64,000 nt of DNA from Hydrogenophilales bacterium (GTDB lineage Bacteria; Pseudomonadota; Gammaproteobacteria; Burkholderiales; Thiobacillaceae), in the NCBI GenBank assembly GCA_016719465.1, contig JADJYY010000019.1:5136-69135 (forward strand). The letters run 5' to 3'. Within the stretch, counting starts at the first letter, position 1. Each line of letters opens with the position of its first letter. Below, piece by piece: positions 1,453 through 50,129 of this stretch. Below the pieces are notes generated by a model. That model was not told the origin of the DNA. It did not search any database and saw only the letters and a program-made list of their open reading frames with translations. A program made the position numbers and the translations under genes.

Positions 1453-1490
1453 GGGGGAATTCCTTGGCTGTGGGGTTGTTCAAGCGTTGC

Positions 1491-1605
1491 GAAATCCCTC
1501 CTGCCCTCCTTTATCCCCGCATGGGGGCTTTGGGAAAGGGAGGAACCCTTCGGCAAGCACCTGGGAATACTCCCCCCTTTGTAAAGGGGGGCTGGGGGGG
1601 ATTTC
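1491..1605. repeat. Family-A ~115-bp palindromic REP/MITE-like element (hypD-hypE spacer)
   Basis: The element runs GAAATCCCTCCTGCCC...CTGGGGGGGATTTC, with terminal inverted repeats. It holds two internal hairpin modules: CCTCCTTT..AAAGGGAGG and CCCCCCTTTGTAAAGGGGGG. Confidence 0.8.
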
Positions 1606-1630
1606 TCCAACGTATCCCTACGAAAACCTG

Positions 1631-3207: not shown

Positions 3208-5712
3208 TCAGCGGATTTGTTGCATTGCAACCCAAGCCTGCCCCAGGCTCAAGCCCCCGTCGTTGGGCGGCGCCTGATTGGCTGTCAGTACGGTCAAGCC
3301 CCGCTCTGTCAGCAGCCGGGTCAGGTTGCGGGAAAGAATGTGGTTGAGAAAACAGCCGCCGCCCAGGGCGACTGTGGTGAGACCTTCCCGGCGGGCGGCG
3401 CGTTCAGTCCAATCCGCCAGGGCCTGGGCCAGGGTGGCGTGGAACAAGGCGGCGCCGAAGGCGGCGTCGGGCTCGTCTGCCAGGCGGGCCAGCAAGGGCA
3501 GCAGATCGAGCCGGCCCGATTCATCGAGCGAGTATCCGTCGGCCAGAGGTTCCACCTCGCCGGCCCCTTCCGCCAAACCCTCCAACAGCATCGCCGCCTG
3601 CCCCTCGTAGGCCATGACCTCCCGCGCGCCCAGCAGGCCGGCGGCGGCGTCGAACCAGCGGCCCAGGCTGGTGGTGGGCGGGCAGTGGACGTCGTGCTCC
3701 AGCAGCACGTGCAGTTGCCGGGCCAGGGGCTGGCTGGGGAAACGGAGGGGAATTTCTTCCGTGCGTCTCAGCCTGAACAAGGCGGCGGCGGCCATGCGCC
3801 AGGGCTCCTTGGCAGCCTTGTCGCCGCCGGGCAGAGGCAGGGGTGAAAGATGGCCCAGGCGGGAGAATTCCGAACCTTCGACCCGCAACAACTCACCGCC
3901 CCAGGCGCTGCCATCGCTGCCCAGGCCCACGCCATCCAGGGCCAGGCCCAGGATGGGTTCGGTCACCCCATGTTCCGCCACCACGGCGGCGATATGGGCA
4001 TGGTGGTGCTGCACGGCGACGGCCGGCACGTTCCACCGGTCCGCCAGTTCCAGGGCGTGGCGGCTGCTGAAGAAATCCGGGTGCAGATCGTGGGCGACGG
4101 CCTCGGGCCGCACTTGCAGGATGTCCAGAAGGTGGTCCGTCACTTCCATCAACATGCCGCAGGTGGCCGGGTTGTCCAGGCCGCCGATGTGCTGGGAGAC
4201 GAAGGCCTCGTCGCCCCGGGTCACGCAGATCGTGTTCTTGAGGTAACCGCCCAGGGCCAGCACCGAGGGGCCGGAGCGGGGCAGGCGGATGGAGCGGGGG
4301 GTGTAGCCGCGGGCGCGGCGGATGAACCCCACATTCCCTCCCCCCTCGCGGGGGAGGGTTAGGGTGGGGGGGGAAGCACCACTGACCATGGCAGCCCAAT
4401 CACCCCCACCCCTGCCCTCCCCCATCAAGGGGGAGGGAGAAAAACGCACCACCGAATCGTCACACCGTACCACGACATCCCGGTCATGCATCAGCACCCC
4501 ATCGGCGATGCCGGCCAGGCGTTCCAGCGCCTCCTCGTTGCGGATCACCAGGGGCTCGCCGCCCGGGTTGGCGCTGGTCATCACCAGCACCAGGTTCTGC
4601 GCTCGATCCATCCAATCCGTGCCGGCGGGCTGTCCCACCGCCTCATGGAAGATCAGCCAATGCAGCGGCGTGTAGGGCAGCATGACGCCCAGCCAGGCCA
4701 GGCCGGGGGCAATGCCGGGCAAGGCCGCGTCGGCCCCCGGCTTCTTGCGCAGCAGGACGATGGGCCGTTCCGGGGATTGCAGCAGTTCGGCCTCGGCGGG
4801 GCTGATCTCCACCCAGTCGGCGATGGAAGCCAGGTTCGCCGCCATGACCGCGAAGGGTTTCTCCTCCCGGTTCTTGCGCTCACGCAGGGTGCGTACCGCC
4901 TCGGCGTTGCGCGCGTCGCAGGCCAGGTGGAAACCGCCCAGGCCCTTGATGGCGACGATCTGGCCGGCTTGCAGGCGATGGAGTGTGTCTGCGATGGGGT
5001 CGGATGGGTTCTGCTGGGCGTCGCTTAATCCCTCCTGTCCTCCCTTTACGAAAGGGAGGGACCCTTTGATAGCGTTAAGAGGTTCCCCCCCCTTTCTTAA
5101 AGCCCTCATCCGAGGATAAAGGGGGCTGGGGGGGATTTCGCCAAGCTCAACCATCTCCAACCCCGGCCCGCACACCGGACACGCCGTCGGCTCCGCATGA
5201 AAGCGCCGGTCGGCCGGGTTGCGGTATTCCCGCTCGCAGTCCGGGCACAGGGGAAACGCCGCCATGCTGGTCTGGGCCCGGTCGTAGGGCAGGCCCCGGG
5301 TCAGGGTGTAGCGGGGGCCGCAGTGGGTGCAGTTGATGAAGGCGTAGCGCCAGCGCCGGTCGGCGGGGTCGAACATCTCCGCCAGGCAGTCCGGGCAGAC
5401 GGCGGTGTCGGGGCCGATCAGGGTCGCGGCCTGCCCTGCCCCGCTTTCCGTGATGGTGAAATCGGCGTGTTCGCCCGTGGCCGGGCCGTCGCTCCAGGTC
5501 AGGTCGCGCACCTGGGCCAGGGGCGGGATTTCCTTGGGCAGGCGGCGGGTGAAGACTTCAATCTGCTCGGGTTCGCCCTCCACCAGGATTTCCACGCCGG
5601 CGGCGTCGTTGCGTACCCAGCCGGCGAGGTTCAGTTCCTGGGCGAGATGCCAGATGTAGGGACGGAAGCCGACGCCCTGGACGATGCCGGTAATGCGGAG
5701 GCGGCGCTGCAC
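3208..5712 (-). CDS. hypF: Carbamoyltransferase HypF (carries two in-frame repeat-derived inserts)
   Basis: 834-aa ORF with these parts:
- an acylphosphatase-like N-terminus (RITGIVQGVGFRPYIW)
- paired CxxC zinc fingers
- a YrdC-like IVAIKGLGGFHLACDA motif
- a Kae1-like C-terminal half. Confidence 0.95.
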   Translation of the reverse strand: MQRRLRITGIVQGVGFRPYIWHLAQELNLAGWVRNDAAGVEILVEGEPEQIEVFTRRLPKEIPPLAQVRDLTWSDGPATGEHADFTITESGAGQAATLIGPDTAVCPDCLAEMFDPADRRWRYAFINCTHCGPRYTLTRGLPYDRAQTSMAAFPLCPDCEREYRNPADRRFHAEPTACPVCGPGLEMVELGEIPPSPLYPRMRALRKGGEPLNAIKGSLPFVKGGQEGLSDAQQNPSDPIADTLHRLQAGQIVAIKGLGGFHLACDARNAEAVRTLRERKNREEKPFAVMAANLASIADWVEISPAEAELLQSPERPIVLLRKKPGADAALPGIAPGLAWLGVMLPYTPLHWLIFHEAVGQPAGTDWMDRAQNLVLVMTSANPGGEPLVIRNEEALERLAGIADGVLMHDRDVVVRCDDSVVRFSPSPLMGEGRGGGDWAAMVSGASPPTLTLPREGGGNVGFIRRARGYTPRSIRLPRSGPSVLALGGYLKNTICVTRGDEAFVSQHIGGLDNPATCGMLMEVTDHLLDILQVRPEAVAHDLHPDFFSSRHALELADRWNVPAVAVQHHHAHIAAVVAEHGVTEPILGLALDGVGLGSDGSAWGGELLRVEGSEFSRLGHLSPLPLPGGDKAAKEPWRMAAAALFRLRRTEEIPLRFPSQPLARQLHVLLEHDVHCPPTTSLGRWFDAAAGLLGAREVMAYEGQAAMLLEGLAEGAGEVEPLADGYSLDESGRLDLLPLLARLADEPDAAFGAALFHATLAQALADWTERAARREGLTTVALGGGCFLNHILSRNLTRLLTERGLTVLTANQAPPNDGGLSLGQAWVAMQQIR
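4334..4441. repeat. Family-B repeat inside hypF coding sequence (in frame, ~108 nt)
   Basis: ccctcccccctcgcgggggagggttagggtgggggg ... ccctgccctcccccatcaagggggagggagaaaaa. It is translated as SPSPLMGEGRGGGDWAAMVSGASPPTLTLPREGGGN. Confidence 0.7.
5025..5139. repeat. Family-A element inside hypF coding sequence (in frame, ~114 nt)
   Basis: TAATCCCTCCTGTCCTCCCTTTACGAAAGGGAGG...GATAAAGGGGGCTGGGGGGGATTTC. It is translated as EIPPSPLYPRMRALRKGGEPLNAIKGSLPFVKGGQEGL. Confidence 0.8.
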
Positions 5713-6235: not shown

Positions 6236-7375
6236 TTAACCCTTCGCAGCCAATGCCGCTTCCAACTCCGCGATCCGCTTCTTCAGCAAATCCACATTCG
6301 CCTCCCGCGACCCCTTGGCCTGGGCCAACCCCGCCAGCAGCCACCCCAGCCACTCCCCCATCCCTGCCCCGCTGGTGGCCGAAACCTGCAAGACTTCCAG
6401 CTTGGGGTTCACCCGCCGGGCGAATTCCACGCACTTGGCCACGTCGAAAGTCAGGTAGGGCAGCAGGTCCACCTTGTTGAGGATCATCAGGTCGGCGGCG
6501 TTGAACATGTCCGGGTATTTCAGGGGTTTGTCCTCGCCTTCGGTGACCGAGAGGATGACCACCTTGTGGGCTTCGCCCAGGTCGAAGGCGGCGGGGCAGA
6601 CCAGGTTGCCGACGTTTTCGATCATGAGCAGGCTGTCGTCGGGCAGGGCCAGGCGCTCCAGGGCATGGCCGACCATGTGGGCGTCCAGGTGGCAGCCCTT
6701 GCCGGTGTTGACCTGGATGGCCGGTGCGCCTGTTGCACGGATGCGGTCGGCGTCGTTGCTGGTCTGCTGGTCACCTTCGACAACAGCCACCTTGGCCTTG
6801 TCCTTGAGCAGTTCGATGGTCTTCACGAGCAGCGTGGTCTTGCCGGAGCCGGGGCTGGAGACCAGGTTGACGGCGAAGATGCCGTGCTCGGCGAAGTGCT
6901 TGCGGTTGCCGTCGGCGTAGCGGTTGTTCTTGCCCAGGATGTCCTGCTCGATCCTGACCATGCGCTCCTGGGTCAGGCCCGGCGCGTGGGCGTGGGCGGG
7001 GCCGAGGCCGTAGTGGAGATCGCCTTTTCCAGCACTGCCCTTGTGCTCGTGGTAGTGCATCTGGCCCCCTTCGCCGTGCAGTTCCGAATCGGCGTGGCTG
7101 TGGTCGTGGCCGGCGCCGGCGTCGTGGAGATGGTCGTGCCCGTGATCGTGGCCGGTGTGGCTGTGCTCGTGGCTGTGGACGTGGGGATGGACGTGGCCGT
7201 GCTCGTGGGGATGGCTGTGGCTGGTGCCGTCCGGATGGGTGTGCTCATGGCCGTGGACGTGGCCATGGTCGTGATCGTGTTCGTGGGTGTGGGGGTGGCT
7301 GTGATCGTGCTCATGTTCGTGCTCATGGCCTTCGATCTTGGTTTCACCCTGGCCGCAGCCGCAGACGGTACACAT
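6236..7375 (-). CDS. hypB: Hydrogenase nickel-incorporation GTPase HypB with very long His-rich N-terminal region
   Basis: Start set at MCTVCGCG (ATG at 7375). 42 His (my count) fall in residues ~17-130. A GSGKTT P-loop and [10 protein letters not shown] motif lie in the C-terminal GTPase domain. Confidence 0.93.
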
Positions 7376-7401
7376 AGACAGACTCCTGAAAAATGATGCT
7401 C

Positions 7402-7470
7402 CGTCACCCCGGCTCAGGCCGGGGTCCAGGCCCAACCCGCTCTGGATTCCGGCCTGCCCCGGAATGACGG
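7402..7470. repeat. Family-C palindromic REP (CCGTCACCCCGG...CCGGAATGACGG) in hypA-hypB spacer
   Basis: The terminal inverted repeats are ccgtcaccccggc / gccccggaatgacgg, with internal hairpins. Confidence 0.6.
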
Positions 7471-8947: not shown

Positions 8948-9513
8948 GACTTATCCCCGGGACGCAGGAAGGCGCCGAAGAAGCCGCGCCGGCTGACGGG
9001 TTGATCCAGCTTGGCGGTGAGCCCCACCGGTGGGGGAGCGGGAGGGGAAGCGGCCGGCGCCGCTGCCGGCTCGGCGGGCGTGAACATTTCCGCCAGGGCC
9101 GCCGCCGCCACTTCCCGGGCGCGGTCCATGTCCGGGAACTCGAACATGGGCGAGAACAGGGAGCTGGTCAGATAGGCGCCCAGTTCGTCTTCGTGGGCGG
9201 TGAGGAATTCGTAGCTGCCCGAGGGCAGTTCCACGTCCCGCTTGCTGCCGCTGGACTCGGGTTCCCAGACGGAGGCCGGGCCGGGCAGGCAGATCAGGCT
9301 CATGAACCAGGGCGTGACGAGGACGCCGACCCAGTCGTCGCGCCAGGGCCGGAAACCCACGGCTTCCACGTCCAGGGCCGGATTGAGGATGGAAACACCG
9401 GCCATGCGCGTGGCGGCGATATGGCGAAAGACCGCCTCAAGGGCGGCGGCCGGGTTCTCTCCCCTTTCATAAAGGGGGGCTGGGGGGGATTTGACGACGG
9501 TGGTCATAGCCAT
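8944..9513 (-). CDS. hupJ: HybE/HupJ/HoxT-family [NiFe]-hydrogenase assembly chaperone
   Basis: 189-aa ORF with core ...NPALDVEAVGFRPWRDDWVGVLVTPWFMSL... Its position follows the rubredoxin gene. The N-terminal ~20 codons lie in a family-A half element, so the exact start is uncertain. Confidence 0.7.
   Translation of the reverse strand: MAMTTVVKSPPAPLYERGENPAAALEAVFRHIAATRMAGVSILNPALDVEAVGFRPWRDDWVGVLVTPWFMSLICLPGPASVWEPESSGSKRDVELPSGSYEFLTAHEDELGAYLTSSLFSPMFEFPDMDRAREVAAAALAEMFTPAEPAAAPAASPPAPPPVGLTAKLDQPVSRRGFFGAFLRPGDKS
9458..9493. repeat. Family-A half element (right module) inside hupJ 5' coding region
   Basis: ctctcccctttcataaaggggggctgggggggatttg. Confidence 0.65.
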
Positions 9514-9521
9514 GCCATGCG

Positions 9522-9575
9522 GAAATCCCCCCTCCCCCCTTTATCCCCGCACGGGGGCTTTAGGAAAGGGGGGAA
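9522..9575. repeat. Family-A half element (left module) immediately upstream of hupJ start
   Basis: gaaatcccccctcccccctttatccccgcacgggggctttaggaaagggggg. Confidence 0.65.
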
Positions 9576-9591
9576 AAAGACGGGTCGCGCG

Positions 9592-11525: not shown

Positions 11526-11547
11526 GGCGCGGGACTCCTGGCCGGGT

Positions 11548-11665
11548 TAAATCCCTCCTGTCCTCCTTTATCCCCGCATGGGGGCTTTACATAAGGGAGG
11601 GACCCTTCGGCATGGGGTGACGGGTGTTCTCCCCCCTTTCCTAAAGGGGGGTTGGGGGGGATTTC
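11548..11665. repeat. Family-A element, tandem copy 1 (hupD-hupF spacer)
   Basis: TAAATCCCTCCTGTCCTCCTTTATCCCCGCATGGGGGC...GGGGGGTTGGGGGGGATTTC. Confidence 0.8.
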
Positions 11666-11692
11666 GACGGTAGTGGCATGGCAGGCGTCGCT

Positions 11693-11809
11693 AAATCCCT
11701 CCTGTCCTCCCTTTACAAAAGGGAGGGACCTTTCGGCACAGGTTAATGGGTGTTCTCCCCCCTTTTCTAAAGCCCCCATGCGGGGATAAAGGGGGCGAGG
11801 GGGGATTTC
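11693..11809. repeat. Family-A element, tandem copy 2, inverted internal orientation
   Basis: AAATCCCTCCTGTCCTCCCTTTACAAAAGGGAGG...CATGCGGGGATAAAGGGGGCGAGGGGGGATTTC. Confidence 0.8.
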
Positions 11810-11820
11810 AACAACGCCCA

Positions 11821-13166: not shown

Positions 13167-13209
13167 GTGTTTCTCCTGGTTAGACGGAGGTGGTCAAGCC
13201 ACGCGGGGA

Positions 13210-13311
13210 GAAATCCCCCCTGCCCCCCCTTTGCAAAGGGGGGAACCTTCCCGCATGGGGATACGCGGATTTGCTCCCCCCTTTCTCGAAGGGGGGCCGG
13301 GGGGGGATTTG
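13210..13311. repeat. Family-A element (hupL-hupC spacer)
   Basis: GAAATCCCCCCTGCCCCCCCTTTGCAAAGGGGGG...CTCGAAGGGGGGCCGGGGGGGGATTT. Confidence 0.75.
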
Positions 13312-13349
13312 CCGCGTTTGGCTCAAGCACCACCGCATGGCAAGCCCGC

Positions 13350-31341: not shown

Positions 31342-31364
31342 GGGCGCGAAAGCGCCCGTTTTCT
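31342..31364 (+). terminator. Rho-independent terminator candidate after clpA
   Basis: GGGCGC-GAAA-GCGCCC followed by GTTTTCT. Confidence 0.55.
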
Positions 31365-32136
31365 ATTGGGTCGCCGGCCGGAACAGTTCGAAGAAGTTCC
31401 GGGTCGTCGCCTCCGCCACCTCGGCGAGGGGAATGCCCCGCAGGCTGGCGATCTCCTCGGCCACGTGGCGCACGTAGGCGGGCTCGTTGCGCCGGCCGCG
31501 ATGAGGCACGGGCGCCAGGTAGGGGGAATCCGTCTCGATCAGCAGCCGCCCCAGGGGGACACGCCGGGCCACGTCCTTCAGATCGCTGGCGCTCTTGAAA
31601 GTGACGATGCCCGAGAGCGAGATATGGAATCCCATATCCAGGGCGAACTTGGCCACGTCCCAGGTTTCGGTGAAACAGTGCATCACGCCGCCCGCATCCC
31701 CGGCCCCCTCCTCCGCCATGATGGCCAGCGTGTCTCCGACGGCATTCCGGGTATGAATGATGAGGGGCTTGCCGGCCAGGCGCGCGGCGCGGATATGGGC
31801 GCGGAAACGGTGGCGCTGCCAGTCCACCTCCTCGCGCTTCATGCGGTAGTAATCCAGTCCCGTCTCGCCGATGGCCAGGACTTTGGGATGGCGGGCCAGG
31901 TCCACCAGCTCCGCCACCGAGGGCTCGCGACCTTCATCATGATCGGGGTGCACCCCCACCGAGGCATAAATATTGTCATGGGCCTCGGCCAGGGCCAGCA
32001 CCCGGGGGAAGGTCTCCAGGCCGACGGCGACACACAGGGCGTGGCTCACGCCGGCAGCCGCCATATTGGCCAGCAGCGGCACGACGCCCTCGGAGAACTC
32101 CGGGAAATCGATGTGGCAGTGGGAGTCTACGAACAT
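31363..32136 (-). CDS. tatD: TatD-family metal-dependent hydrolase (YcfH-like)
   Basis: 257-aa ORF MFVDSHCHIDFPEF... It lies in the conserved tmk-holB-pilZ-tatD context. Confidence 0.9.
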   Translation of the reverse strand: MFVDSHCHIDFPEFSEGVVPLLANMAAAGVSHALCVAVGLETFPRVLALAEAHDNIYASVGVHPDHDEGREPSVAELVDLARHPKVLAIGETGLDYYRMKREEVDWQRHRFRAHIRAARLAGKPLIIHTRNAVGDTLAIMAEEGAGDAGGVMHCFTETWDVAKFALDMGFHISLSGIVTFKSASDLKDVARRVPLGRLLIETDSPYLAPVPHRGRRNEPAYVRHVAEEIASLRGIPLAEVAEATTRNFFELFRPATQ

Positions 32137-32281
32137 GGGGAGAAGGGGAATAGAAAGTGGGGAGTGGGCGGTTCGCAGTCGTTAGAGCGGGTACGGGTTG
32201 TTGCATTTCGATTCGCCTGGCGCGGACACGCAAGTCACCACTCCCCTTCCTACTTCCTACTTCCTACTACCCACTCCCCAA
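32137..32281. repeat. Heptad-periodic inverted-repeat intercistronic element H1 (pilZ stop to tatD ATG)
   Basis: The plus-strand left arm is AGTGGGG AGTGGGC GGTTCGC AGTCGTT. The right arm is ACTTCCT ACTTCCT ACTACCC ACTCCCC. GGGGAGTGGG and CCCACTCCCC are complementary. The element fills the whole 145-nt spacer. Confidence 0.7.
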
Positions 32282-32647
32282 TCACATCGTATGGGTCAGG
32301 CGGGTGGACTTCATGGCATTGCCGAGCATGCCCTCGATCTTCTGGCGAACCGCCGTGGCGCCCTCGCCTTCGTCGAACTGCACGCCGATGCCTTGCTGGC
32401 GGTTGCCCTGGGCGCCGGAGGGGGTGATCCAGACCACCTTGCCGGATATCGGCAACTTGTTGGGTTCATCCATCAGGGTCAGCAGCATGTAGACCTGATC
32501 GCCCATCTGGTAGGGCCGGTTGGTGGGGATGAACAGGCCGCCGCCCTTGACGTAGGGCATGTAGGCGGCGAACAGGGCGGAACGTTCCTTGATGGCCAGG
32601 GAGAGCATCCCGGCTCGGCCGGCTGTCTGGCGCGTGCTTTCACTCAT
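32282..32647 (-). CDS. pilZ: PilZ-domain protein (type IV pilus assembly PilZ-like)
   Basis: 121-aa ORF downstream of holB; GLFIPTNRPYQMGDQVYMLLTLMDE...GIGVQF. Confidence 0.85.
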   Translation of the reverse strand: MSESTRQTAGRAGMLSLAIKERSALFAAYMPYVKGGGLFIPTNRPYQMGDQVYMLLTLMDEPNKLPISGKVVWITPSGAQGNRQQGIGVQFDEGEGATAVRQKIEGMLGNAMKSTRLTHTM

Positions 32648-43759: not shown

Positions 43760-45613
43760 ATGACTCAAGTCAAGATCACCGACCTGGTTCTGCGCGACGG
43801 ACATCAATCCCTGATCGCCACCCGCATGCGCACCGAGGACATGCTGCCCATCTGCGGCAAGCTCGACAGCGTGGGCTTCTGGTCCCTGGAAGCCTGGGGC
43901 GGCGCCACCTTCGACGCCTGCGTGCGCTTCCTCAAGGAGGACCCCTGGGAGCGCCTGCGCAAGCTGCGCCGGGCCCTGCCCAATTCCCGCATCCAGATGC
44001 TGCTGCGCGGCCAGAACCTGCTGGGCTATCGCCACTATCCCGATGACGTGGTGCGCGCCTTCGTCCAGAAATCCGCCGACAACGGCGTCGATGTGTTCCG
44101 CGTGTTCGACGCCATGAACGACATCCGCAACCTGCGCGTGTCCATCGAAGCGGTGAAGGCCGCCGGCAAGCACGCCGAGGGCACCCTCAGCTACACCACC
44201 AGCCCGGTGCACGACATCCCCTATTTCGTCGCCATGGCGCGCGAACTGGAAGCCATGGGCAGCGACACCCTGGCCATCAAGGACATGGCCGGCCTGCTCA
44301 CGCCCTACACCACGGCGGAGTTGGTGAAGGCCATCAAGGCCGCCGTCTCCATTCCCATTCACCTGCACAGCCACGCCACCTCCGGCCTGGCCAGCATGGT
44401 CCACATGAAAGGCGTGGAAGCCGGCGCGGTGATGATCGACACCTGTATTTCCGCCTTCTCCGAAGGCGCCAGCCACCCCACCACGGAAAGCCTTGTGGCC
44501 GCCTTCGCCGGCACCGAGTACGACACCGGTCTTGACTTGGGCAAGCTCCAGGAAATCGCCGCCTATTTCCGGGAGGCGCGCAAGAAATACTGGCAGTTCG
44601 AGATGACCGGCCCCCAGGTGGATACCCGCATCCTGGTCTCCCAGGTGCCGGGCGGCATGATTTCCAACCTGAGCAACCAGCTCAAGGAACAGGGCGCCCT
44701 GAACCGGATGGACGACGTCCTGGCGGAAATCCCCCGGGTGCGCGCCGACCTGGGTTTTCCGCCCCTGGTCACCCCCACTTCCCAGATCGTCGGTACCCAG
44801 GCCGTGCTCAACGTGCTCACCGGCGGCCGCTACAAGTCGGTCACCAACGAGGTGAAGAACTACCTGCTGGGCCGCTACGGCGCCGCGCCGGGCACGGTCA
44901 ACGAGGAAGTGAAAAAGATGGCCGTGGGCAACCAGGAGGTCATCACCTGCCGTCCGGCCGACCTGATCGGCGACGAACTGGACAAGCTGCGCGGCGAAGC
45001 CGAGGGCCTGGCCAAGTCCGACGAGGACGTGCTGACCTACGCCATGTTCCCGGACATCGGCCGCACCTTCCTGCAGGAACGGGCCGCCGGCACCCTGACG
45101 CCGGAAACCCTGCTGCCGCCGGAATCCCGCGAGGCCATGTCCTGCCCCGCCGTCTACGCCCCCAGCGAATTCAACGTCACCCTGCACGGCGAGACCTACC
45201 ACATCCGCATCAAGGGCACCGGCCACGGCGGCGAGGGCCAGCGGCCGTTCTACGTGCACGTGGATGGCGTCGCCGAGGAAGTCCTGCTGGAAGCCCTGGA
45301 CGAGGTGGAAGTCACCCCGGGCACGGCCGCGCCCCGCAAGGCTTCCGGCAAGAAGGACAGCGGCGGCAGCAAGCAGCGTCCGCGCCCTACCCACGCTGGC
45401 TGCGTCACCACCGCCATGCCCGGCACCATCGTCGACGTCAAGGTCAAGCCCGGCGACAAGGTCAAGGCCGGCGACGGCGTGCTGGTCATCGAGGCCATGA
45501 AGATGGAAAACGAGGTGCAGGCCCCGGTGGCGGGCACCGTGGTCCAGGTCCATGTGGCCAAGGGCGACGCGGTGACGCCGGATCAGGTCCTGGTGGAGAT
45601 ACAGCCTGAGTAA
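43760..45613 (+). CDS. Carboxyltransferase + biotin carrier subunit (pyruvate carboxylase subunit B / OadA-like)
   Basis: 617-aa ORF MTQVKITDLVLRDGHQSL... with a C-terminal biotinyl motif VIEAMKMENEV. Confidence 0.88.
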   Translation: MTQVKITDLVLRDGHQSLIATRMRTEDMLPICGKLDSVGFWSLEAWGGATFDACVRFLKEDPWERLRKLRRALPNSRIQMLLRGQNLLGYRHYPDDVVRAFVQKSADNGVDVFRVFDAMNDIRNLRVSIEAVKAAGKHAEGTLSYTTSPVHDIPYFVAMARELEAMGSDTLAIKDMAGLLTPYTTAELVKAIKAAVSIPIHLHSHATSGLASMVHMKGVEAGAVMIDTCISAFSEGASHPTTESLVAAFAGTEYDTGLDLGKLQEIAAYFREARKKYWQFEMTGPQVDTRILVSQVPGGMISNLSNQLKEQGALNRMDDVLAEIPRVRADLGFPPLVTPTSQIVGTQAVLNVLTGGRYKSVTNEVKNYLLGRYGAAPGTVNEEVKKMAVGNQEVITCRPADLIGDELDKLRGEAEGLAKSDEDVLTYAMFPDIGRTFLQERAAGTLTPETLLPPESREAMSCPAVYAPSEFNVTLHGETYHIRIKGTGHGGEGQRPFYVHVDGVAEEVLLEALDEVEVTPGTAAPRKASGKKDSGGSKQRPRPTHAGCVTTAMPGTIVDVKVKPGDKVKAGDGVLVIEAMKMENEVQAPVAGTVVQVHVAKGDAVTPDQVLVEIQPE

Positions 45614-45753
45614 TCAGTGAAGGGGGAAGGGTCCGCGCCTTGGGCGCTCAAGGGGGAAGGGTAAAAGCCCGCCCCTTCACCCTTCACCCTTCACCCTTCA
45701 CCCTTCACCCTTCACCCTTCACCCTTCACCCTTCACCCTTCACCCTTCACCCC
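45614..45753. repeat. Heptad-periodic intercistronic element H2 incl. (CCTTCAC)x11 at 45674-45750
   Basis: G-rich segments GTGAAGGGGGAAGGGT (45617-45632) and AAGGGGGAAGGGT (45650-45662) come first. CCCGCC and 11 perfect CCTTCAC units follow, then CCC and the maf ATG. Confidence 0.9.
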
Positions 45754-46344
45754 ATGCGCCTCGTCCTGGCCTCCACCTCCCCCTACCGCCGCGAACTGTT
45801 GGCGAGGTTGGGCGTGCCCTTCGAGGTGGCGGCACCGGAAGTGGACGAGACGCCGCTGCCCGGCGAATCCCCCGACGACACCGCCCAGCGCCTGTCCGTG
45901 TTGAAGGCCCGGGCCGTCGCGGCACGTTTTCCCGATGCCCTGATCATCGGCTCGGATCAGGTCGCCTTGCTCGAAGGCGTGCAACTGGGCAAACCCGGCA
46001 GCCACGAAAACGCGGTGGTCCAACTGCGCGCCATGCGTGGCAAGACCCTGGAATTTCACACCGCACTGACCCTGCTGAACGCGAAAACCGGCTCGGTCCA
46101 GACAGCCAACGTACCCGTTCGCCTGGTGATGCGGAATTACAGCGATGCCCAGATCGAGACCTATCTGAGGAAGGACCAGCCCTACAACTGCTGCGGCAGC
46201 GCCCGTAGCGAGTCCCTGGGCATCGCCCTCATCGCCCGTTACGAGACCGAGGACCCCAATGCCCTGGTGGGCCTGCCCCTGATCAAGCTCACGGAGATGC
46301 TGGCCAACGAAGGCCTGGACGTGCTGACTTACGGGGAGGAGTAA
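45754..46344 (+). CDS. maf: Maf-like nucleoside triphosphate pyrophosphatase
   Basis: 196 aa from the ATG at 45754: MRLVLASTSPYRRELLARLGVPFEV... Confidence 0.9.
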   Translation: MRLVLASTSPYRRELLARLGVPFEVAAPEVDETPLPGESPDDTAQRLSVLKARAVAARFPDALIIGSDQVALLEGVQLGKPGSHENAVVQLRAMRGKTLEFHTALTLLNAKTGSVQTANVPVRLVMRNYSDAQIETYLRKDQPYNCCGSARSESLGIALIARYETEDPNALVGLPLIKLTEMLANEGLDVLTYGEE

Positions 46345-46347
46345 GGC

Positions 46348-47103
46348 GTGCCCTCGCAAGGCGAGGATGAAAGGAACGAGAAGAAGCTTGTGCCTGGCAC
46401 CCTGTTCCTCATCCCCACCCCCCTCGGCGATACCCCACTGGAACACGTCCTGCCCGAGGAGACCCGCCGCATCGCCGCCGGGCTGTCGGTCTTCATCGTC
46501 GAACAGGCCAAGACCGCGCGCGCCTTCCTCAAGCAGGTGCCCACAGCAACTCCTTTACAGCAACTGACCCTGCTGGAACTCAACGAACACACGCCGAAAG
46601 ACCGTCTCGAAAACCTGCTTGCCCCCCTCCTGGCCGGGCAGGATGTGGGCCTGGTCTCGGAGGCCGGCTGCCCGGCGGTGGCCGATCCGGGCGCCGATCT
46701 GGTCCGCCTGGCCCACCGCCACGGCATCCATGTGCGACCGCTGGTGGGGCCTTCTTCCATCCTGCTGGCCCTGATGGGTTCCGGCCTGGTCGGGCAACGC
46801 TTCGCCTTCCACGGCTACCTGCCGACCAAACCGGAAGACCGGGCCAAGGCCTTGCGCGAACTGGAAAAACGCGCGGAGAAGGACGATGCGGCCCAGGTCT
46901 TCATCGAGACGCCGTATCGCAACTCCGCCATGCTGGAAGCCATCCTGGCGGCCTGCCGGGACGACACCCTGGTAACGATCGCCCGCGATCTGACCCTGGA
47001 GGGTGAATATCTGGTCACCCGGCCGGTGTCGGCTTGGCGCGTTAGCGCGCCGGACATCCAGAAACGTCCGACCGTCTTCCTGCTGTACCGTCCCAAAACC
47101 TGA
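46348..47103 (+). CDS. SAM-dependent methyltransferase, tetrapyrrole-methylase (RsmI-like) fold
   Basis: 251-aa ORF with a GTG start; LFLIPTPLGD and GLVSEAGCPAVADPG motifs. Confidence 0.75.
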   Translation: MPSQGEDERNEKKLVPGTLFLIPTPLGDTPLEHVLPEETRRIAAGLSVFIVEQAKTARAFLKQVPTATPLQQLTLLELNEHTPKDRLENLLAPLLAGQDVGLVSEAGCPAVADPGADLVRLAHRHGIHVRPLVGPSSILLALMGSGLVGQRFAFHGYLPTKPEDRAKALRELEKRAEKDDAAQVFIETPYRNSAMLEAILAACRDDTLVTIARDLTLEGEYLVTRPVSAWRVSAPDIQKRPTVFLLYRPKT

Positions 47104-47106
47104 TCA

Positions 47107-47968
47107 TCAAAACGCCTCGCGCATGCGCAGATAGCTGGCGAAGCGGGGCAGGCCGTTCTTGTTCAGTTCGCGGTAGCGGTAGGTGATCAAGGCGCCGATG
47201 GGTGGTGGCGCGCGGCGGGTTTCATCCTTGAAACCGGTGCCGATCCGGAAGCGCCGGCCATCCGTCATCTCCACCCGCAACGCCCCCAGCATGCCCCGGT
47301 ACCTGCCCTGTCCCGGCACATGGCCGATGACGGTGGCTTCCGCGTCCAGCCAGGGCTTCACTTTCAGCAGGACATCGCCGCGTCCGGTCACGTAGGGCGC
47401 ATCCGCCAGGTGCAGCATCAAGCCCTCGCCTCCAGCCCGCACCACTTCGTTCATGCGCCGCATCAGTTCCGCCCGATCGGCCACGCGATAATGCTCCACG
47501 GCTTGCAGCCAGGGCACCGCGGAAGTCCGGACAAGGGCCCCCATGGCTTCGATCCGTTCGCTGAAGGTACCTGGCGCCTCCGGCAGTTCGAACACCATGT
47601 AGCGCACCTGGCGCCACTCCTCGTCCACGGGCTTGTTGCTTGCGCACGATGCCGGAGAGGCGGTCGAAACCGCCACGACCGAGCCAGAGTTCCCCATCCA
47701 GGGGCCGGGCTGGAAACCCGGCGGTGAACCAGGCGGGCGCGTGGACCGCCTGGCCGCTACGGAACCACAAGGACTTGCCGTCCCAGAATGCCCGGGCGCC
47801 ATCCAGCTTCTCGCTGACCCAATACAGCGAAACATCGGTCTGGTTCTGGAAGACGTTGGCGAGCAACAAGGCCGGGGCCGAAGGATGCTCATCGGCGAGG
47901 GAGGCCCGCGCCAGCCCAACCAGCAGCAGGAAGCCGACGAGAACGAGGCACCAGGGGCGTCGGATCAT
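47107..47968 (-). pseudogene. Periplasmic ATP-dependent DNA ligase (LigE-like), with a 1-nt frame disruption near 47632-47641
   Basis: The N-terminal part (frame of ORF 47222..48040) has a signal-like MIRRPWCLVLVGFLLLVGLARA and the adenylation motif SEKLDG. The C-terminal part (frame of ORF 47107..47919) continues KPVDEEWRQVRYMVFELP...LMLHLADAPY. The span is 862 nt, which is not a multiple of 3. Confidence 0.8.
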
Positions 47969-47987
47969 GGGCCCCCGACGGGCGGCA

Positions 47988-48875
47988 TCAGACCGGAAAA
48001 ACCCCGGTGGACAGGTAGCGGTCGCCCCGGTCGCAGACAATGGAGACGATGACCGCGTTCTCCACCTCCCTGGACAGTTGCAGGGCGGCGTACAGGGCGC
48101 CGCCCGAGGAGATGCCGGCGAAGATGCCCTCCTCGCTGGCCAGGCGCCGAGCGGTCTCCTCGGCGGCGGCCTGGCCCACGTAGATCATGCGGTCCACCCG
48201 GTCGTAGTCGCAGATGCTGGGCACGTATTCCGCCGGCCACTTGCGGATGCCGGGAATCTGGGCGCCCTCCTCCGGCTGCACGCCGACGATCTGGATGGCC
48301 GGGTTCACTTCCTTGAGGTAGCGGGAGCAGCCCATGATGGTGCCGGTGGTGCCCATGCTGGAGACGAAGTGGGTGACGCGCCCTTCCGTGTCGCGCCAGA
48401 TCTCCGGGCCGGTGGATTCGTAATGGGCCGCCGGGTTATCCGGGTTGGAGAACTGGTCGAGGATCTTGCCCCGGCCTTCCCGCTGCATCTGCTCGGCCAG
48501 GTCGCGGGCGCCTTCCATGCCGGCTTGCTTGCTCACCAGCACCAGGTCGGCCCCATAGGCCTTCATGGTCTGGCGCCGTTCGATGGAGAGGTGCTCGGGC
48601 ATGATCAGCACCATGCGGTAGCCGCGGATGGCGGCGGCCATGGCCAGGGCGATGCCGGTGTTGCCGCTGGTGGCCTCGATCAGGGTGTCGCCGGGCCTGA
48701 TCTCGCCCCGTGCCTCGGCCTTGGCGATCATGGACAGGGCCGGACGGTCCTTCACGGAGCCAGCCGGGTTGTTGCCCTCCAGTTTCACCAGCACCACGTT
48801 GGAGGTTTCGCCCGGCAGCTTCTTCAGGCGGACCAGGGGAGTGTTGCCGACGAAATCTTCGATGGATTTGTACAT
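47988..48875 (-). CDS. cysM: Cysteine synthase B (O-acetylserine sulfhydrylase)
   Basis: 295-aa ORF; NPAGSVKDRPAL (PLP Lys) and TSGNTGIALA motifs. Confidence 0.92.
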   Translation of the reverse strand: MYKSIEDFVGNTPLVRLKKLPGETSNVVLVKLEGNNPAGSVKDRPALSMIAKAEARGEIRPGDTLIEATSGNTGIALAMAAAIRGYRMVLIMPEHLSIERRQTMKAYGADLVLVSKQAGMEGARDLAEQMQREGRGKILDQFSNPDNPAAHYESTGPEIWRDTEGRVTHFVSSMGTTGTIMGCSRYLKEVNPAIQIVGVQPEEGAQIPGIRKWPAEYVPSICDYDRVDRMIYVGQAAAEETARRLASEEGIFAGISSGGALYAALQLSREVENAVIVSIVCDRGDRYLSTGVFPV

Positions 48876-48962
48876 AGGTGAAAGTAGTCAGTTGGCAGTC
48901 ATCAGTGGGCGGTAGCGAGGGCGGTGGCTGGATTCCGCCTACTGGCGACTGCCTACTGTCGA
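48876..48962. repeat. Heptad-periodic inverted-repeat intercistronic element H3 (ugd stop to cysM ATG)
   Basis: Plus strand reads AGTAGTC AGTTGGC AGTCATC AGTGGGC GGTAGCG ... CTACTGG CGACTGC CTACTGT CGACTAG. The arms are ~29 nt and imperfectly complementary. The element fills the whole 87-nt spacer. Confidence 0.75.
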
Positions 48963-50129
48963 CTAGTCTTTTCCGAACAGATCCCGGCTGTAGACCTTGT
49001 CCGCCACATCGCGGATGTCGTCGGTGATGCGGTTGGCGACGATGACGTCGGATTGCCGCTTGAATTCGGCCAAGTCATTGACGACCCGTGAGTGGAAGAA
49101 CTCCGCGTCCTTCAGCACCGGCTCGTAGACGATGACCTCGATGCCCTTGGCCTTGATGCGCTTCATGATGCCCTGGATGCTGGAGGCGCGGAAGTTGTCC
49201 GAGCCGCTCTTCATGATCAGGCGATGGACGCCGACGATCCTGGGCTTGCGACTGAGGATGCTGTCGGCGACGAAGTCCTTGCGGGTGGTGTTGGAATCGA
49301 CGATGGCGCGCATCAGGTTCTGGGGCACGTCCCGGTAGTTGGCCAGGAGTTGCTTGGTGTCCTTGGGCAGGCAGTAGCCGCCATAGCCGAAGGAAGGATT
49401 GTTGTAGTGCTCGCCGATGCGCGGGTCCAGGCAGACACCCTGGATGATGTGCTTGGTGTCCAGCCCGTGGGTGGCGGCGTAGGTGTCCAGTTCGTTGAAG
49501 TAGGCCACGCGCATGGCCAGGTAGGTATTGGCGAACAGCTTGATGGCCTCGGCCTCGGTGGAGTCGGTGAACAGCACCGGGATGTCCCGCTTGATGGCAC
49601 CCTGCTTCAGCAGGCTGGCGAAGGTCGCCGCCCTCTCGGATTGCTCGCCAATGATGATGCGGGAGGGGTGGAGGTTGTCGTAGAGGGCTTTGCCCTCGCG
49701 CAGGAATTCGGGTGAGAAGATCAGGTTTTCACAGTTGAACTCCGCCTTCAGCTTGGCGGTGTAGCCTACCGGCACGGTGGACTTGAGGATCATCACCGCC
49801 TTGGGGTTGATCGCCTTGACATCGCGGATCACCGCCTCGACGGACCGGGTGTTGAAGTAGTTGGTCTCGGTGTCGTAGTCGGTGGGGGTGGCGATGACCA
49901 CATACTCGGCCCCGGCATAGGCGTCGGACTTGTCGAGGGTGGCCCGGAAGTTCAGGGGCTTGTTGCTCAGGTAGTCCTCGATTTCGCTGTCGATGATGGG
50001 CGAAACCTTGCGATTGAGCATCTCCACCTTCTCGGGGACGATGTCGAGGGCCACCACTTCATTGTGCTGGGCCAGCAGGATGGCGTTGGAGAGACCGACG
50101 TAGCCGGTGCCCGCGATGGCAATCTTCAT
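48963..50129 (-). CDS. ugd: UDP-glucose 6-dehydrogenase
   Basis: 388-aa [19 protein letters not shown]...; [10 protein letters not shown] catalytic Cys motif. Confidence 0.95.

What the first reader, a model, noticed from the sequence alone, without database searches (positions are those of the whole stretch)
45614..45753. Eleven perfect CCTTCAC heptamers ending 3 nt before the maf ATG, paired with complementary G-rich segments next to the upstream stop codon
**What the sequence shows**
- The whole 140-nt spacer between the pyruvate-carboxylase B-subunit stop (TAA 45611-45613) and the maf ATG (45754) is one structured element.
- It reads: TCA-GTGAAGGGGGAAGGGT ... AAGGGGGAAGGGT-AAAAG-CCCGCC-(CCTTCAC)x11-CCC-ATG.
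- I counted the 11 units base by base (45674-45750) and found no substitutions.
- GTGAAGGGGGAAGGGT is complementary to ACCCTTCACCCTTCAC at 15 of 16 positions, so many slipped hairpin registers are possible.
- In the outermost register the stem base places the stop codon 3 nt before the stem and the start codon 3 nt after it.
- maf has no purine-rich Shine-Dalgarno sequence. The 80 nt before its ATG are pyrimidine repeats.

**Why it matters**
- A perfect 7-nt repeat array, whose unit is not a multiple of 3, is a classic slipped-strand substrate. Copy-number change could alter hairpin length or register and hence maf expression.
- In form it resembles the heptanucleotide STRR repeats known from cyanobacteria.
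Basis: partly seen in the sequence, partly recalled or inferred. Interest (0 to 1): 0.65.

Follow-up and report, generated by a model that had tools for sequence, protein, structure and literature searches.

The report
Variable heptamer repeat upstream of maf
The perfect 7-base repeat between the pyruvate-carboxylase B gene and maf is real, pairs with a G-rich partner, and changes copy number between close relatives, but it belongs to an already described class of bacterial heptamer repeats whose function is still unproven.

Summary
(CCTTCAC)x11 lies at 45674-45750, perfect, 3 nt before the maf ATG. G-rich partner segments and a small GC stem-loop fill the rest of the 140-nt pycB-maf spacer.

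Related metagenome contigs carry 5, 5, 9, 9 (with one substitution), at least 12 and 14 units. In strain pairs about 98.5% identical, the array holds the only indel.

The same junction in other relatives carries the same architecture built from other heptamers (ACTGCCG, CTACCAG, TTGCCCC, CCCCATG). Each has a complementary 5' arm, and several share a conserved stem-loop, TCCGCGCC-NNN-GGCG. Most relatives have only a 0-30 nt, translationally coupled junction.

Arm complementarity exceeds what base composition gives. Predicted RNA folding uses about 5 units. Further units form an unstructured leader without a Shine-Dalgarno (SD) sequence.

The window holds two more such elements, and one of them is inverted between strains.

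This is a new member of a known kind:
- prokaryotic heptanucleotide long simple sequence repeats;
- convergent G-rich heptamer pairs of Xanthomonas and Nostoc;
- functionally closest, the Haemophilus hmw 5'-UTR heptamer/G-rich hairpin.

It is not a cyanobacterial STRR. Any effect on maf expression remains inferred.

The parts
43760..45613 (+). pycB-type gene (pyruvate carboxylase subunit B / OadA-like, with a C-terminal biotinyl domain); stop TAA at 45611-45613
   Evidence: NCBIfam PRK09282 906.9 bits and TIGR01108 834 bits. Synteny with maf is conserved in relatives.
45617..45632 (+). 5' G-rich arm, copy 1: GTGAAGG GGGAAGG GT. It is the degenerate complement of the heptamer array and resembles the SD region of relatives that lack the element.
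   Evidence: Sequence. GTGAAGG match on the complementary strand. 15/16 complementarity to two units. L131 has GGTGAGGGGGATGG in the same place, followed directly by the ATG.
45633..45649 (+). Central GC stem-loop CCGCGCC-TTG-GGCGC (stem 45635-45639 / 45643-45647). It is conserved as T(C/G)CGCGCC-NNN-GGCG in seven alleles whose arms differ completely.
   Evidence: Fold. Alleles window, L216, L120, L142, L121, L215 and L233. Absent in L134, where a 30-nt deletion lies between the two 13-nt direct repeats.
45650..45662 (+). 5' G-rich arm, copy 2: AAGGGGGAAGGGT, a direct repeat of 45620-45632
   Evidence: Exact match. It pairs with the first array units in the minimum-free-energy structure.
45663..45673 (+). 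Linker AAAAGCCCGCC, the loop of the inner helix. L151 has the homologous context AACAGCCCCCTTCACCCC with a single CCTTCAC.
45674..45750 (+). (CCTTCAC)x11, a perfect and copy-number-variable array. On the minus strand it reads (GTGAAGG)x11, which contains GGGTGAA units, i.e. G3N4.
   Evidence: Alleles with 5, 5, 9, 9, at least 12 and 14 units.
45751..45753 (+). CCC between the last unit and the start codon; no SD
45754..46344 (+). maf (Maf-family nucleotide pyrophosphatase, 196 aa)
   Evidence: TIGR00172 155.6 bits. Homologues of 192-199 aa with full coverage.
32137..32281 (-). Second element of the same architecture, in the pilZ-to-tatD spacer. It runs: stop, G-rich arm with (GTAGGAA)x3, TCCGCGCC-AGGCG centre, C-rich arm ending at the ATG.
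   Evidence: Length is polymorphic (133-163 nt), and the inner roughly 100 nt are inverted in other strains whose flanks are identical.
48876..48962 (-). Third element, in the ugd-to-cysM spacer. It has degenerate CAGTAGG-type units on the 5' side and ACTGNNN units on the 3' side, ending 11 nt before the ATG.
   Evidence: Identical in L001, L221 and L222.

Best explanation
**What it is (shown)**
- It is an intercistronic inverted pair of heptanucleotide simple-sequence repeats.
- The parts are a degenerate G-rich 5' arm, a small conserved GC stem-loop, and a perfect C-rich 3' array.
- It has grown inside a junction that is normally tiny and translationally coupled, in a Thiobacillaceae-like betaproteobacterium from activated sludge.

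**How it changes**
- The array gains and loses whole units. This is shown between strains; replication slippage as the cause is inferred.
- The arms stay complementary. Whole spacer alleles built from other heptamers replace one another between near-identical strains. This is shown.
- Template switching across the palindrome, or short-tract recombination, is the inferred cause.

**What it does (inferred)**
- The spacer is probably transcribed with pycAB and maf.
- In the RNA, the G-rich segments pair with about five units nearest the centre. That gives a stable imperfect hairpin of about -50 kcal/mol just after the pycB stop.
- All further units form an unstructured C/U/A-rich leader without an SD in front of the maf AUG.
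- The element therefore uncouples maf translation from pycB.
- Copy number sets how exposed the AUG region is: masked at 5 units or fewer, open at 8 or more.
- I read it as a quantitative, largely non-adaptive by-product of repeat dynamics, not a dedicated on/off switch.
- By analogy with the Haemophilus hmw 5'-UTR, the imperfect hairpin is a candidate RNase III site.
For: **Copy-number alleles**
- 11 units in the window and 14 in L001, which encodes an identical Maf.
- 4+1+4 units in L134 and at least 12 in L214.
- 9, 5 and 5 units in L216, L217 and L218, which encode an identical Maf.
- The sole gaps between strains 98.5% identical are 28 nt (L216 vs L217) and 14 nt (L154 vs L156).

**Same architecture with other units at the same junction**
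- ACTGCCG (L120, L142); CTACCAG, CTACGCG and ACTACCG (L121, L215, L158, L233).
- TTGCCCC (L154, L156); CCCCATG (L166); CCGAAAC (L178).

**Ancestral state and origin**
- Most relatives have an overlapping or 2-30 nt junction.
- L151 holds a single CCTTCAC in the homologous context, which points to amplification in place.

**Complementarity and conservation**
- Permuted-unit tests for seven pycB-maf alleles gave 0/98, 0/98, 1/413, 9/413, 0/98, 0/203 and 6/133 permutations folding as well as the real unit.
- The stem-loop is conserved across seven alleles.
- The non-array spacer of the window against L216 has 7 mismatches in 57 nt, against a maf third-position divergence of 0.306 (P = 0.001).

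**Folding**
- The minimum free energy is constant at -50.4 kcal/mol for 5 to 20 units.
- P(paired) for the last 15 nt is 0.73, 0.70, 0.31, 0.18, 0.12 and 0.08 for n = 3, 5, 8, 11, 14 and 20. The start codon is always open.

**Transcription**
- No promoter-like or plus-strand terminator-like site lies in 45000-46500.
- Metatranscriptome contigs cover both pycB and maf at similar word depth.

**Class behaviour**
- Period-7 arrays dominate around such loci: 60 against 10 or fewer for any other period.
- The pilZ-tatD element is equally variable.

**Precedents**
- PMC4692102, PMC4679880 and PMC12721329.
Against: - No expression, structure-probing or end-mapping data exist for this locus.
- RNA contigs do not span the array. 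Contig depth is a poor measure of expression.
- Copy numbers come from consensus assemblies of different strains.
- Against whole-sequence shuffles the fold is unremarkable (z = -1.77).
- Within the CCTTCAC class, changes in the left arm (GTGAAGG to GTAAAGG or GTAATGG) weaken pairing and are not compensated. Selection for the stem is therefore weak at best.
- Stem-loop conservation shows no covariation, so it says nothing about RNA as against DNA.
- Many relatives lack the element, so it is dispensable.
Confidence: 0.55

Rival explanations
1. Selectively neutral repeat debris. The array and its partner arise and turn over by mutation alone, and copy number has no measurable effect on maf or pycB.
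For: - The element is absent from most relatives, which have a compact junction.
- Similar elements sit at unrelated housekeeping junctions: pilZ-tatD, ugd-cysM, and ftsH-folP in Gallionella.
- Left-arm changes are not compensated.
- Rehm et al. found no regulatory role for the analogous Xanthomonas repeats (PMC4692102).
Against: - The central stem-loop and the non-array spacer are conserved beyond the synonymous-site expectation.
- Predicted exposure of the AUG region changes strongly with n.
- In the one analogous system that has been tested, hmw, copy number does change expression (PMC12721329).
Confidence: 0.22
2. A DNA-level G-quadruplex / i-motif element. (GGGTGAA)n on the template strand of maf, and the four G-tracts just after the pycB stop, fold into G4 DNA or RNA. 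These modulate transcription, replication or mRNA stability.
For: - The minus strand carries 11 G3 tracts with 4-nt loops. The plus strand carries G5-AA-G3 ... G5-AA-G3 around a hairpin. By established knowledge this meets the canonical rule of four G3+ tracts separated by 1-7 nt.
- GGGAATC and GGGGATT heptamers with the same placement form G4 in vitro. That placement is the G-rich strand just after a stop, or on the non-coding strand just before an ORF (PMC4692102).
- In the genome-contig loci, nearby pairs of opposite orientation are always G-rich arm first (8 of 8, two-sided P = 0.008).
Against: - Alleles at this same junction with the same architecture are built from units without G-tracts: ACTGCCG, CTACCAG, ACTACCG. 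G4 potential is therefore not the common denominator.
- There is no experimental test here.
Confidence: 0.1
3. A small dispersed (MITE- or REP-like) element. The whole unit of arm, stem-loop and arm is copied between intergenic sites or exchanged between loci. The heptamer array is its terminal repeat.
For: - In three runs, a contig carries 43-52 nt of the left arm plus stem-loop (2 mismatches) behind a different gene end...CTGTTGTAAAT.
- There are three elements of one architecture in 64 kb, two of them sharing TCCGCGCC.
- The same heptamer types recur at different loci (ACTGCC at ugd-cysM and in the L120 pycB-maf allele).
- Spacer alleles are swapped within flanks at least 98.6% identical, and the differences are confined to the spacer +/- 40 nt.
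- A REP-like palindrome occupies the same junction in L143.
Against: - There are no target-site duplications or defined termini.
- The CCTTCAC allele has persisted at this site across about 11% nucleotide divergence, diverging in step with its flanks.
- L151 suggests amplification of a resident unit in place.
- No transposase or RAYT gene was seen or sought in the window.
- No further copies were found among the loci held.
Confidence: 0.15
4. A dedicated phase-variation (contingency) switch that turns maf on and off for adaptive benefit.
For: - It is a perfect array whose unit is not a multiple of 3, next to a start codon, and it varies between strains.
- Heptamer and tetramer repeats in 5' UTRs do tune adhesin genes in Haemophilus and Moraxella (PMC12721329, PMC4679880).
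Against: - The array lies outside the reading frame and outside any promoter-like spacing.
- Maf is a housekeeping nucleotide pyrophosphatase.
- Equivalent arrays precede folP, tatD and cysM.
- Rehm et al. argue against phase variation for the analogous class (PMC4692102).
Confidence: 0.05

Closest known systems
Heptanucleotide long simple sequence repeats of prokaryotes (Mrazek et al. 2007, as summarised in PMC4679880; also 'Satellites in the prokaryote world', PMC6749651)
   Same: - Perfect tandem 7-nt units, longer than chance, mostly intergenic.
- Abundant in some Betaproteobacteria.
- Slippage is the proposed mechanism.
- The period-7 excess is reproduced here.
   Different: That work is a genome-wide census. 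It does not describe the complementary partner arm, the conserved stem-loop, or the turnover of alleles at one orthologous junction.
Quadruplex-forming GGGAATC / GGGGA(C/T)T heptamer repeats of Xanthomonas and Nostoc (Rehm et al. 2015, PMC4692102)
   Same: - G3N4-type unit with 2-26 copies, between co-oriented ORFs.
[quoted passage not shown]
- There are 70-75 convergent inverted pairs per genome.
- Length and sequence vary between close relatives while the type (single or inverted pair) is kept.
- Function is unknown.
   Different: - The unit (GGGTGAA) and the host differ.
- Here one arm is a long perfect array and the other is short and degenerate.
- A conserved GC stem-loop sits between the arms.
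- Alleles without G-tracts occupy the same site.
Haemophilus influenzae hmw1A 5'-UTR hairpin (Rapun-Araiz et al. 2025, PMC12721329)
   Same: - A transcribed pyrimidine-rich heptamer array (AUCUUUC)n pairs with a G-rich stretch in a long imperfect hairpin.
- A fixed number of repeats is used, and extra repeats leave the hairpin unchanged. The same is predicted here.
- Copy number tunes expression of the downstream gene.
   Different: - That is a pathogen adhesin with its own promoter. This is an intercistronic spacer of a housekeeping operon.
- The order is mirrored: there repeats 5' and G-rich 3', here the opposite.
- RNase III cleavage and the expression effect are shown there and untested here.
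TAACTGA direct repeats of marine Beggiatoaceae and cyanobacteria (MacGregor 2015, PMC4679880)
   Same: Heptamer direct repeats that end a few nucleotides before start codons, replace a recognisable SD, and sit before housekeeping genes.
   Different: - Only 2-6 copies.
- One unit is used genome-wide.
- No inverted partner (one indirect repeat among 170 sets).
Cyanobacterial STRR heptamers
   Same: Tandem heptanucleotide repeats in intergenic DNA.
   Different: STRR families are defined by cyanobacterial hosts and specific units (for example CCCCAGT). Neither applies here.
REP / BIME / REPIN extragenic palindromes (PMC3116915)
   Same: - Intergenic hairpin-forming elements at operon junctions, dispersed within a genome.
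- A REP-like palindrome occupies this very junction in L143.
   Different: - REPs are fixed sequences of about 20-40 nt, not tandem heptamers.
- They are linked to RAYT transposases.
- They show no unit-wise length variation.

Membership tests
Prokaryotic heptanucleotide long simple sequence repeat (LSSR) | Head-to-tail perfect copies of a 7-nt unit, longer than expected by chance | tested here: met
   11.4 copies at 100% identity. 30 matches against 8.1 expected, with 0 of 100 shuffles reaching 30.
Prokaryotic heptanucleotide long simple sequence repeat (LSSR) | Unit-wise copy-number variation between strains | tested here: met
   5, 5, 9, 9, 11, at least 12 and 14 units. Sole gaps of 28 nt and 14 nt in pairs 98.5% identical.
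Convergent G-rich heptamer pairs / G4-forming heptamer SSR (Rehm 2015) | Unit with a G3+ tract, and at least 4 units so that a quadruplex motif exists | tested here: met
   (GGGTGAA)x11 on the minus strand. This meets the sequence motif only.
Convergent G-rich heptamer pairs / G4-forming heptamer SSR (Rehm 2015) | [quoted passage not shown] | tested here: met
   The G-rich arm starts 3 nt after the pycB stop. The G-rich complement of the array ends 3 nt before maf. 8 of 8 nearby pairs in other genomes have the G-rich arm first.
Convergent G-rich heptamer pairs / G4-forming heptamer SSR (Rehm 2015) | Quadruplex actually forms | not testable with these tools
   Needs CD or NMR. Alleles without G-tracts at the same site argue that a quadruplex is not required.
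Cyanobacterial STRR | Cyanobacterial host and one of the STRR unit sequences | tested here: not met
   Maf relatives at about 90% identity are named Thiobacillaceae, Hydrogenophilales, Gallionellaceae or Betaproteobacteria. The unit CCTTCAC is not an STRR unit (from memory).
SSR-driven phase-variation (contingency) locus | The repeat lies in the reading frame or between promoter elements, so unit changes switch the gene on or off | tested here: not met
   The array lies between a stop and a start codon. No promoter-like site lies in 45000-46500.
SSR/G-rich 5'-UTR hairpin of the hmw type | The transcribed repeat pairs with a G-rich stretch; a fixed number of repeats is used; extra repeats do not change the hairpin | tested here: met
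   This is a prediction only. The minimum free energy is -50.4 kcal/mol for 5-20 units, with the same helices. Specificity was shown by unit permutation. Transcription of the array itself is not shown.
SSR/G-rich 5'-UTR hairpin of the hmw type | RNase III cleavage, and expression dependent on copy number | not testable with these tools
   Only assembled metatranscriptome contigs were available, and they stop at the repeat.
Intrinsic terminator | GC-rich hairpin followed by a U-tract | tested here: not met
   No plus-strand site in the scan. The stem-loop is followed by TCAAGGGGG.
Any curated RNA family (Rfam 15) | Score at or above the family's gathering threshold | tested here: not met
   The best hits score 12-20 bits against thresholds of 70-90 bits, and all are eukaryotic families.
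REP / REPIN / MITE | Near-identical copies dispersed in one genome, with defined ends | tested here: inconclusive
   One further copy of the left 43-52 nt lies behind another gene in runs X1, X3 and X26. No other copy was found in the window or the held loci. No whole genome was available.

The most novel reading that the evidence does not exclude
Inverted heptamer elements may be a distinct, self-renewing class of intercistronic element in Nitrosomonadales-type betaproteobacteria.
- A conserved GC stem-loop would nucleate two complementary heptamer arms.
- The arms would be rewritten together far faster than the flanking genes, by unit expansion, unit switching and even inversion of the interior. 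A transcription- and RNase III-dependent process like the one reported for hmw might drive this.
- The elements would act as tunable couplers, setting how much of a downstream cistron is translated.
Probability: 0.12. Interest if true: 0.65.

Novelty: new member of a known kind. Interest (0 to 1): 0.4.

Why it matters
Heptanucleotide repeats are the commonest long simple repeats in many bacteria. More than thirty years after they were first described, their function and the reason for the 7-nt period remain unknown.

This junction offers a natural allelic series at one housekeeping operon:
- no element;
- a proto-element with a single unit;
- 3 to 14 or more units;
- five or more different units;
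- with and without the central stem-loop.

That series could be moved into reporters to test directly three questions:
- whether such repeats tune translation of an SD-less cistron;
- whether the partner arm and stem-loop matter;
- whether the findings on the Haemophilus hmw hairpin extend to non-pathogens.

For annotation, the finding explains two things:
- why short-read assemblies break at this point;
- why gene callers sometimes extend maf upstream through the array, which is free of stop codons (215-aa and 234-aa calls).

Tried and rejected
**Steps that gave nothing**
Only Logan contigs were available for the flanks, and they break at the array.
- Similarity to plasmid records: none.
- Rfam: only chance hits far below threshold.
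- Promoter/terminator scan: nothing on the plus strand.
- The central stem-loop as a dispersed motif in the window: 2 matches, at chance level.
- GC skew for replication direction: uninformative.
- Exact-protein look-ups with PycB and the RsmI-like protein to gain more alleles: not on record.
- The Elhai 2008 paper on small mobile repeats within cyanobacterial heptamer arrays is not held. That resemblance rests on memory only.

**A test that was inconclusive**
- A crude test of where arrays sit relative to ORFs, on 110 arrays from other genomes, could not decide. GTGAAGG itself contains TGA, and long spurious ORFs abound in GC-rich DNA. I make no claim from it.

**Ideas considered and rejected**
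- An N-terminal extension of Maf through the array (ORF 45640-46344, PFTLHPS repeats). Homologues start at the ATG. The upstream frame is not conserved, and changes of 7 nt break it.
- An assembly artefact. The array recurs in independent assemblies from several projects.
Full report
**1. The observation**

- The stop TAA is at 45611-45613, followed by TCA.
- GTGAAGGGGGAAGGGT lies at 45617-45632.
- A small stem-loop, CCGCGCC-TTG-GGCGC, follows, then TC.
- A second AAGGGGGAAGGGT lies at 45650-45662, followed by AAAAGCCCGCC.
- Then come eleven perfect CCTTCAC units (45674-45750), CCC, and the ATG at 45754.

Tandem Repeats Finder gives 11.4 copies of period 7 at 100% identity. The heptamer occurs 30 times in the window against 8.1 +/- 2.6 expected. 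The 13-mer occurs exactly twice.

The flanking genes are a biotin carboxylase, a PycB/OadA-type carboxyltransferase with a biotinyl domain, Maf, and an RsmI-like methyltransferase.

The maf start at 45754 is secure. Homologues are 192-199 aa long and align from residue 1.

No promoter-like site and no plus-strand terminator-like site lies between the genes. No Rfam family matches.

**2.

Runs that hold this sequence are activated-sludge, wastewater and soil metagenomes. Maf relatives at about 90% identity are labelled Thiobacillaceae, Hydrogenophilales, Gallionellaceae or Betaproteobacteria.

Independent assemblies give an allelic series instead:

| Locus | Maf identity to window | Units |
|---|---|---|
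| L001 | 100% | 14 |
| L214 | 97% | at least 12 |
| L134 | 99% | 4+1+4, with one CCTTTAC; lacks 30 nt between the two 13-nt direct repeats |
| L216 | 93% | 9 |
| L217 | 93% | 5 |
| L218 | 93% | 5 |

L216, L217 and L218 all encode the same Maf protein.

L216 and L217 are 98.5% identical over 3.6 kb, and their only gap is 28 nt, which is four units. L154 and L156, which carry a different heptamer, are 98.6% identical, and their only gap is 14 nt. The array is therefore a length hot spot. The refutation criterion 'invariant array' is not met.

**3. The same junction in relatives**

The pycB-maf synteny is conserved.

Most relatives have a compact, coupled junction. The stop and start overlap (GAGTGA/GTG), or the spacer is 2-30 nt.

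Several lineages carry the same architecture built from other heptamers. Each has a degenerate complementary 5' arm:
- ACTGCCG / ACTGACC, with GTCAGTN units on the left (L120, L142).
- CTACCAG, CTACGCG / CTACCCG, and ACTACCG, with NGTAGNN units on the left (L121-L130, L215, L158 with at least 13 units, L233).
- TTGCCCC, with GGGGCAA on the left (L154 x6, L156 x4).
- CCCCATG (L166).
- CCGAAAC (L178).

Seven alleles from three heptamer classes share the central stem-loop T(C/G)CGCGCC-NNN-GGCG. The loop is free to vary.

L131 has only three G-rich heptamers (GGTTAGG GGTGAGG GGGATGG) that serve as the SD region. L151 has a short G-rich/C-rich pair with a single CCTTCAC in the homologous context. 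The series therefore looks like growth in place from a G-rich SD region and a single unit.

Contact with both genes follows from the small ancestral spacer. It is not in itself evidence of design.

**4. Is the pairing real?**

Whole-sequence shuffles do not single out the fold (z = -1.77).

Permuting the letters within the unit keeps composition and periodicity. With that control the real unit is far better in six of seven pycB-maf alleles. The counts of permutations folding as well are 0/98, 0/98, 1/413, 9/413, 0/98, 0/203 and 6/133. The arms are therefore specifically complementary.

Within the CCTTCAC class, however, changes in the left arm are not compensated. Stem-loop conservation shows no covariation.

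Arm agreement could come from selection on a hairpin. It could equally come from template switching across a quasi-palindrome, an established mutational route (from memory). The data do not decide between them.

The non-array part of the spacer is conserved. Between the window and L216 it has 7 mismatches in 57 nt, whereas maf third positions differ at 0.306 (P = 0.001).

**5. What copy number would do**

In the predicted RNA ensemble, the two G-rich segments pair with about five units nearest the centre. The energy stays at -50.4 kcal/mol for 5 to 20 units, and extra units remain single-stranded.

The probability that the 15 nt before the AUG are paired is:

| Units | P(paired), last 15 nt |
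|---|---|
| 3 | 0.73 |
| 5 | 0.70 |
| 8 | 0.31 |
| 11 | 0.18 |
| 14 | 0.12 |
| 20 | 0.08 |

The AUG itself is always open.

Translation without an SD depends on local absence of structure (established knowledge, from memory). Short arrays would thus mask the maf start region and long arrays would expose it. This is inference.

Metatranscriptome assemblies hold both pycB and maf at similar word depth. That is consistent with co-transcription, but the contigs stop at the repeat.

**6. The wider class**

- Arrays reach 17 units.
- In Betaproteobacteria several loci repeat the full architecture. In Gallionella (L037) the order is: TGA stop, G-rich arm, GCGCGC-TTC-GCGCGC stem-loop, (CCTTCAC)x13, then directly the ATG of folP. 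L045, L002, L051 and L112 are further examples.
- Where both orientations lie near each other, the G-rich arm comes first in 8 of 8 cases.
- Around these loci, perfect arrays of period 7 outnumber every other period: 60 against 10 or fewer.

The window itself holds two more elements on the minus strand:
- pilZ-tatD (32137-32281);
- ugd-cysM (48876-48962).

**7. Allele replacement and an inversion**

*Window against L120.* Identity on the maf side is 98.6%. The last 349 nt of pycB differ at only 5 positions. The spacer cannot be aligned.

*The pilZ-tatD element.* Contigs that encode the identical TatD have spacers of 133-163 nt.
- In one allele class the inner roughly 100 nt are the reverse complement of the window's, at 82-86% identity.
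- About 1.5 kb of flanks differ at a single position.

*The ugd-cysM element.* This degenerate element is invariant.

*A second copy.* In three runs, a contig carries the left arm and stem-loop of the pycB-maf element behind a different gene end.

Together these show that such spacers are the fastest-changing parts of these genomes. They leave room for movement or exchange between loci. I could not resolve that without a whole genome.

**8. Comparison with what is known**

- Heptanucleotide units are the most abundant long simple repeats in many prokaryotes, including Burkholderia (Mrazek 2007, as reviewed in PMC4679880; PMC6749651).
- Rehm et al. (PMC4692102) describe G-rich heptamers in Xanthomonas and Nostoc. 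These share the placement rule seen here, show 70-75 convergent inverted pairs per genome, and vary between relatives. No function was demonstrated.
- MacGregor (PMC4679880) describes TAACTGA repeats that end just before SD-less start codons.
- Rapun-Araiz et al. (PMC12721329) show that the Haemophilus hmw heptamer array is transcribed and pairs with a G-rich stretch in a hairpin that uses a fixed number of repeats. RNase III cuts it, and it tunes expression.

The present element fits this kind in form and in predicted behaviour. It is not an STRR. It fails the defining placement of a classical contingency locus.

The observation that alleles without G-tracts occupy the same site argues that quadruplex formation is not the common requirement.

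**9. Verdict**

The element is a real, hypervariable member of a known class. Its value lies in the natural allelic series at one junction. Its function is inferred, not shown.

Noticed in passing
window 32137-32281 (minus strand; pilZ 32282-32647 to tatD 31363-32136): A second inverted heptamer element: (GTAGGAA)x3, a TCCGCGCC-AGGCG centre, and a C-rich arm ending at the ATG. In contigs that encode the identical TatD, the spacer is 133-163 nt. In one allele class the inner roughly 100 nt are inverted at 82-86% identity, while about 1.5 kb of flanks differ at one position.
   Followed up: partly
window 48876-48962 (minus strand; ugd 48963-50129 to cysM 47988-48875): A third element, with degenerate CAGTAGG-type units on the 5' side and ACTGNNN units on the 3' side. 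It uses the same heptamer type as the pycB-maf allele of L120 and L142. It is identical in L001, L221 and L222.
   Followed up: partly
runs X1, X3 (DNA) and X26 (RNA), laid on window 45614-45665: A contig carries the G-rich arm plus stem-loop (2 mismatches) directly behind a different sequence, ...TTCGGACGTGCGCCGGTTGCTGTTGTAAAT. At least one further copy of this part of the element therefore exists at another locus in the community.
   Followed up: partly
window 1453-1630, 2768-2963, 5017-5155, 9449-9577, 11526-11820, 13202-13314: Families of REP-like hairpins built from C6/G6 runs (for example CCCCCCTTT-loop-AAAGGGGGG and TCCCCGCATGGGGGC). They often lie several in a row, in intergenic spacers of a hydrogenase-maturation (hyp) gene region.
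   Followed up: no
window 47107-48040 (minus strand): The periplasmic-type ATP-dependent DNA ligase gene is split over two reading frames. In L001, L120 and others it is one gene of 286 aa. This is either a frameshift pseudogene or an indel error of the assembly.
   Followed up: partly
window 7095-7337 (within hypB 6236-7435, minus strand): Tandem repeats of 12, 24 and 78 nt encode a histidine-rich stretch near the N-terminus of HypB (NCBIfam PRK10463 and HypB_prefix_1).
   Followed up: partly
window 45439-45475: An 18-nt tandem duplication inside pycB (KVKPGD KVKAGD), in the biotinyl-domain region.
   Followed up: no
L037 7130-7302 (minus strand of locus; Gallionella sp. PLWV01000008): The ftsH-like to folP junction has the same architecture: TGA stop, G-rich arm, GCGCGC-TTC-GCGCGC stem-loop, (CCTTCAC)x13, then directly the ATG.
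   Followed up: no
L143 and L174 (pycB-maf spacers of relatives): In L143 the same junction holds a REP-like long palindrome (GTAGGAGTGACCTTGGCCGCGA...TCGCGGCCAAGGCCGCTCCTAC). In L174 it holds a 305-nt spacer with (TTAGGAA)x3 and several G/C-run hairpins.
   Followed up: no
L051 1740-1900: The stop codon of the upstream gene (…GAAGAAGAAGTGA) lies inside the first GTGAAGG unit. The G-rich orientation supplies TGA in all three frames within 21 nt, whereas the C-rich orientation has no stop in any frame.
   Followed up: no
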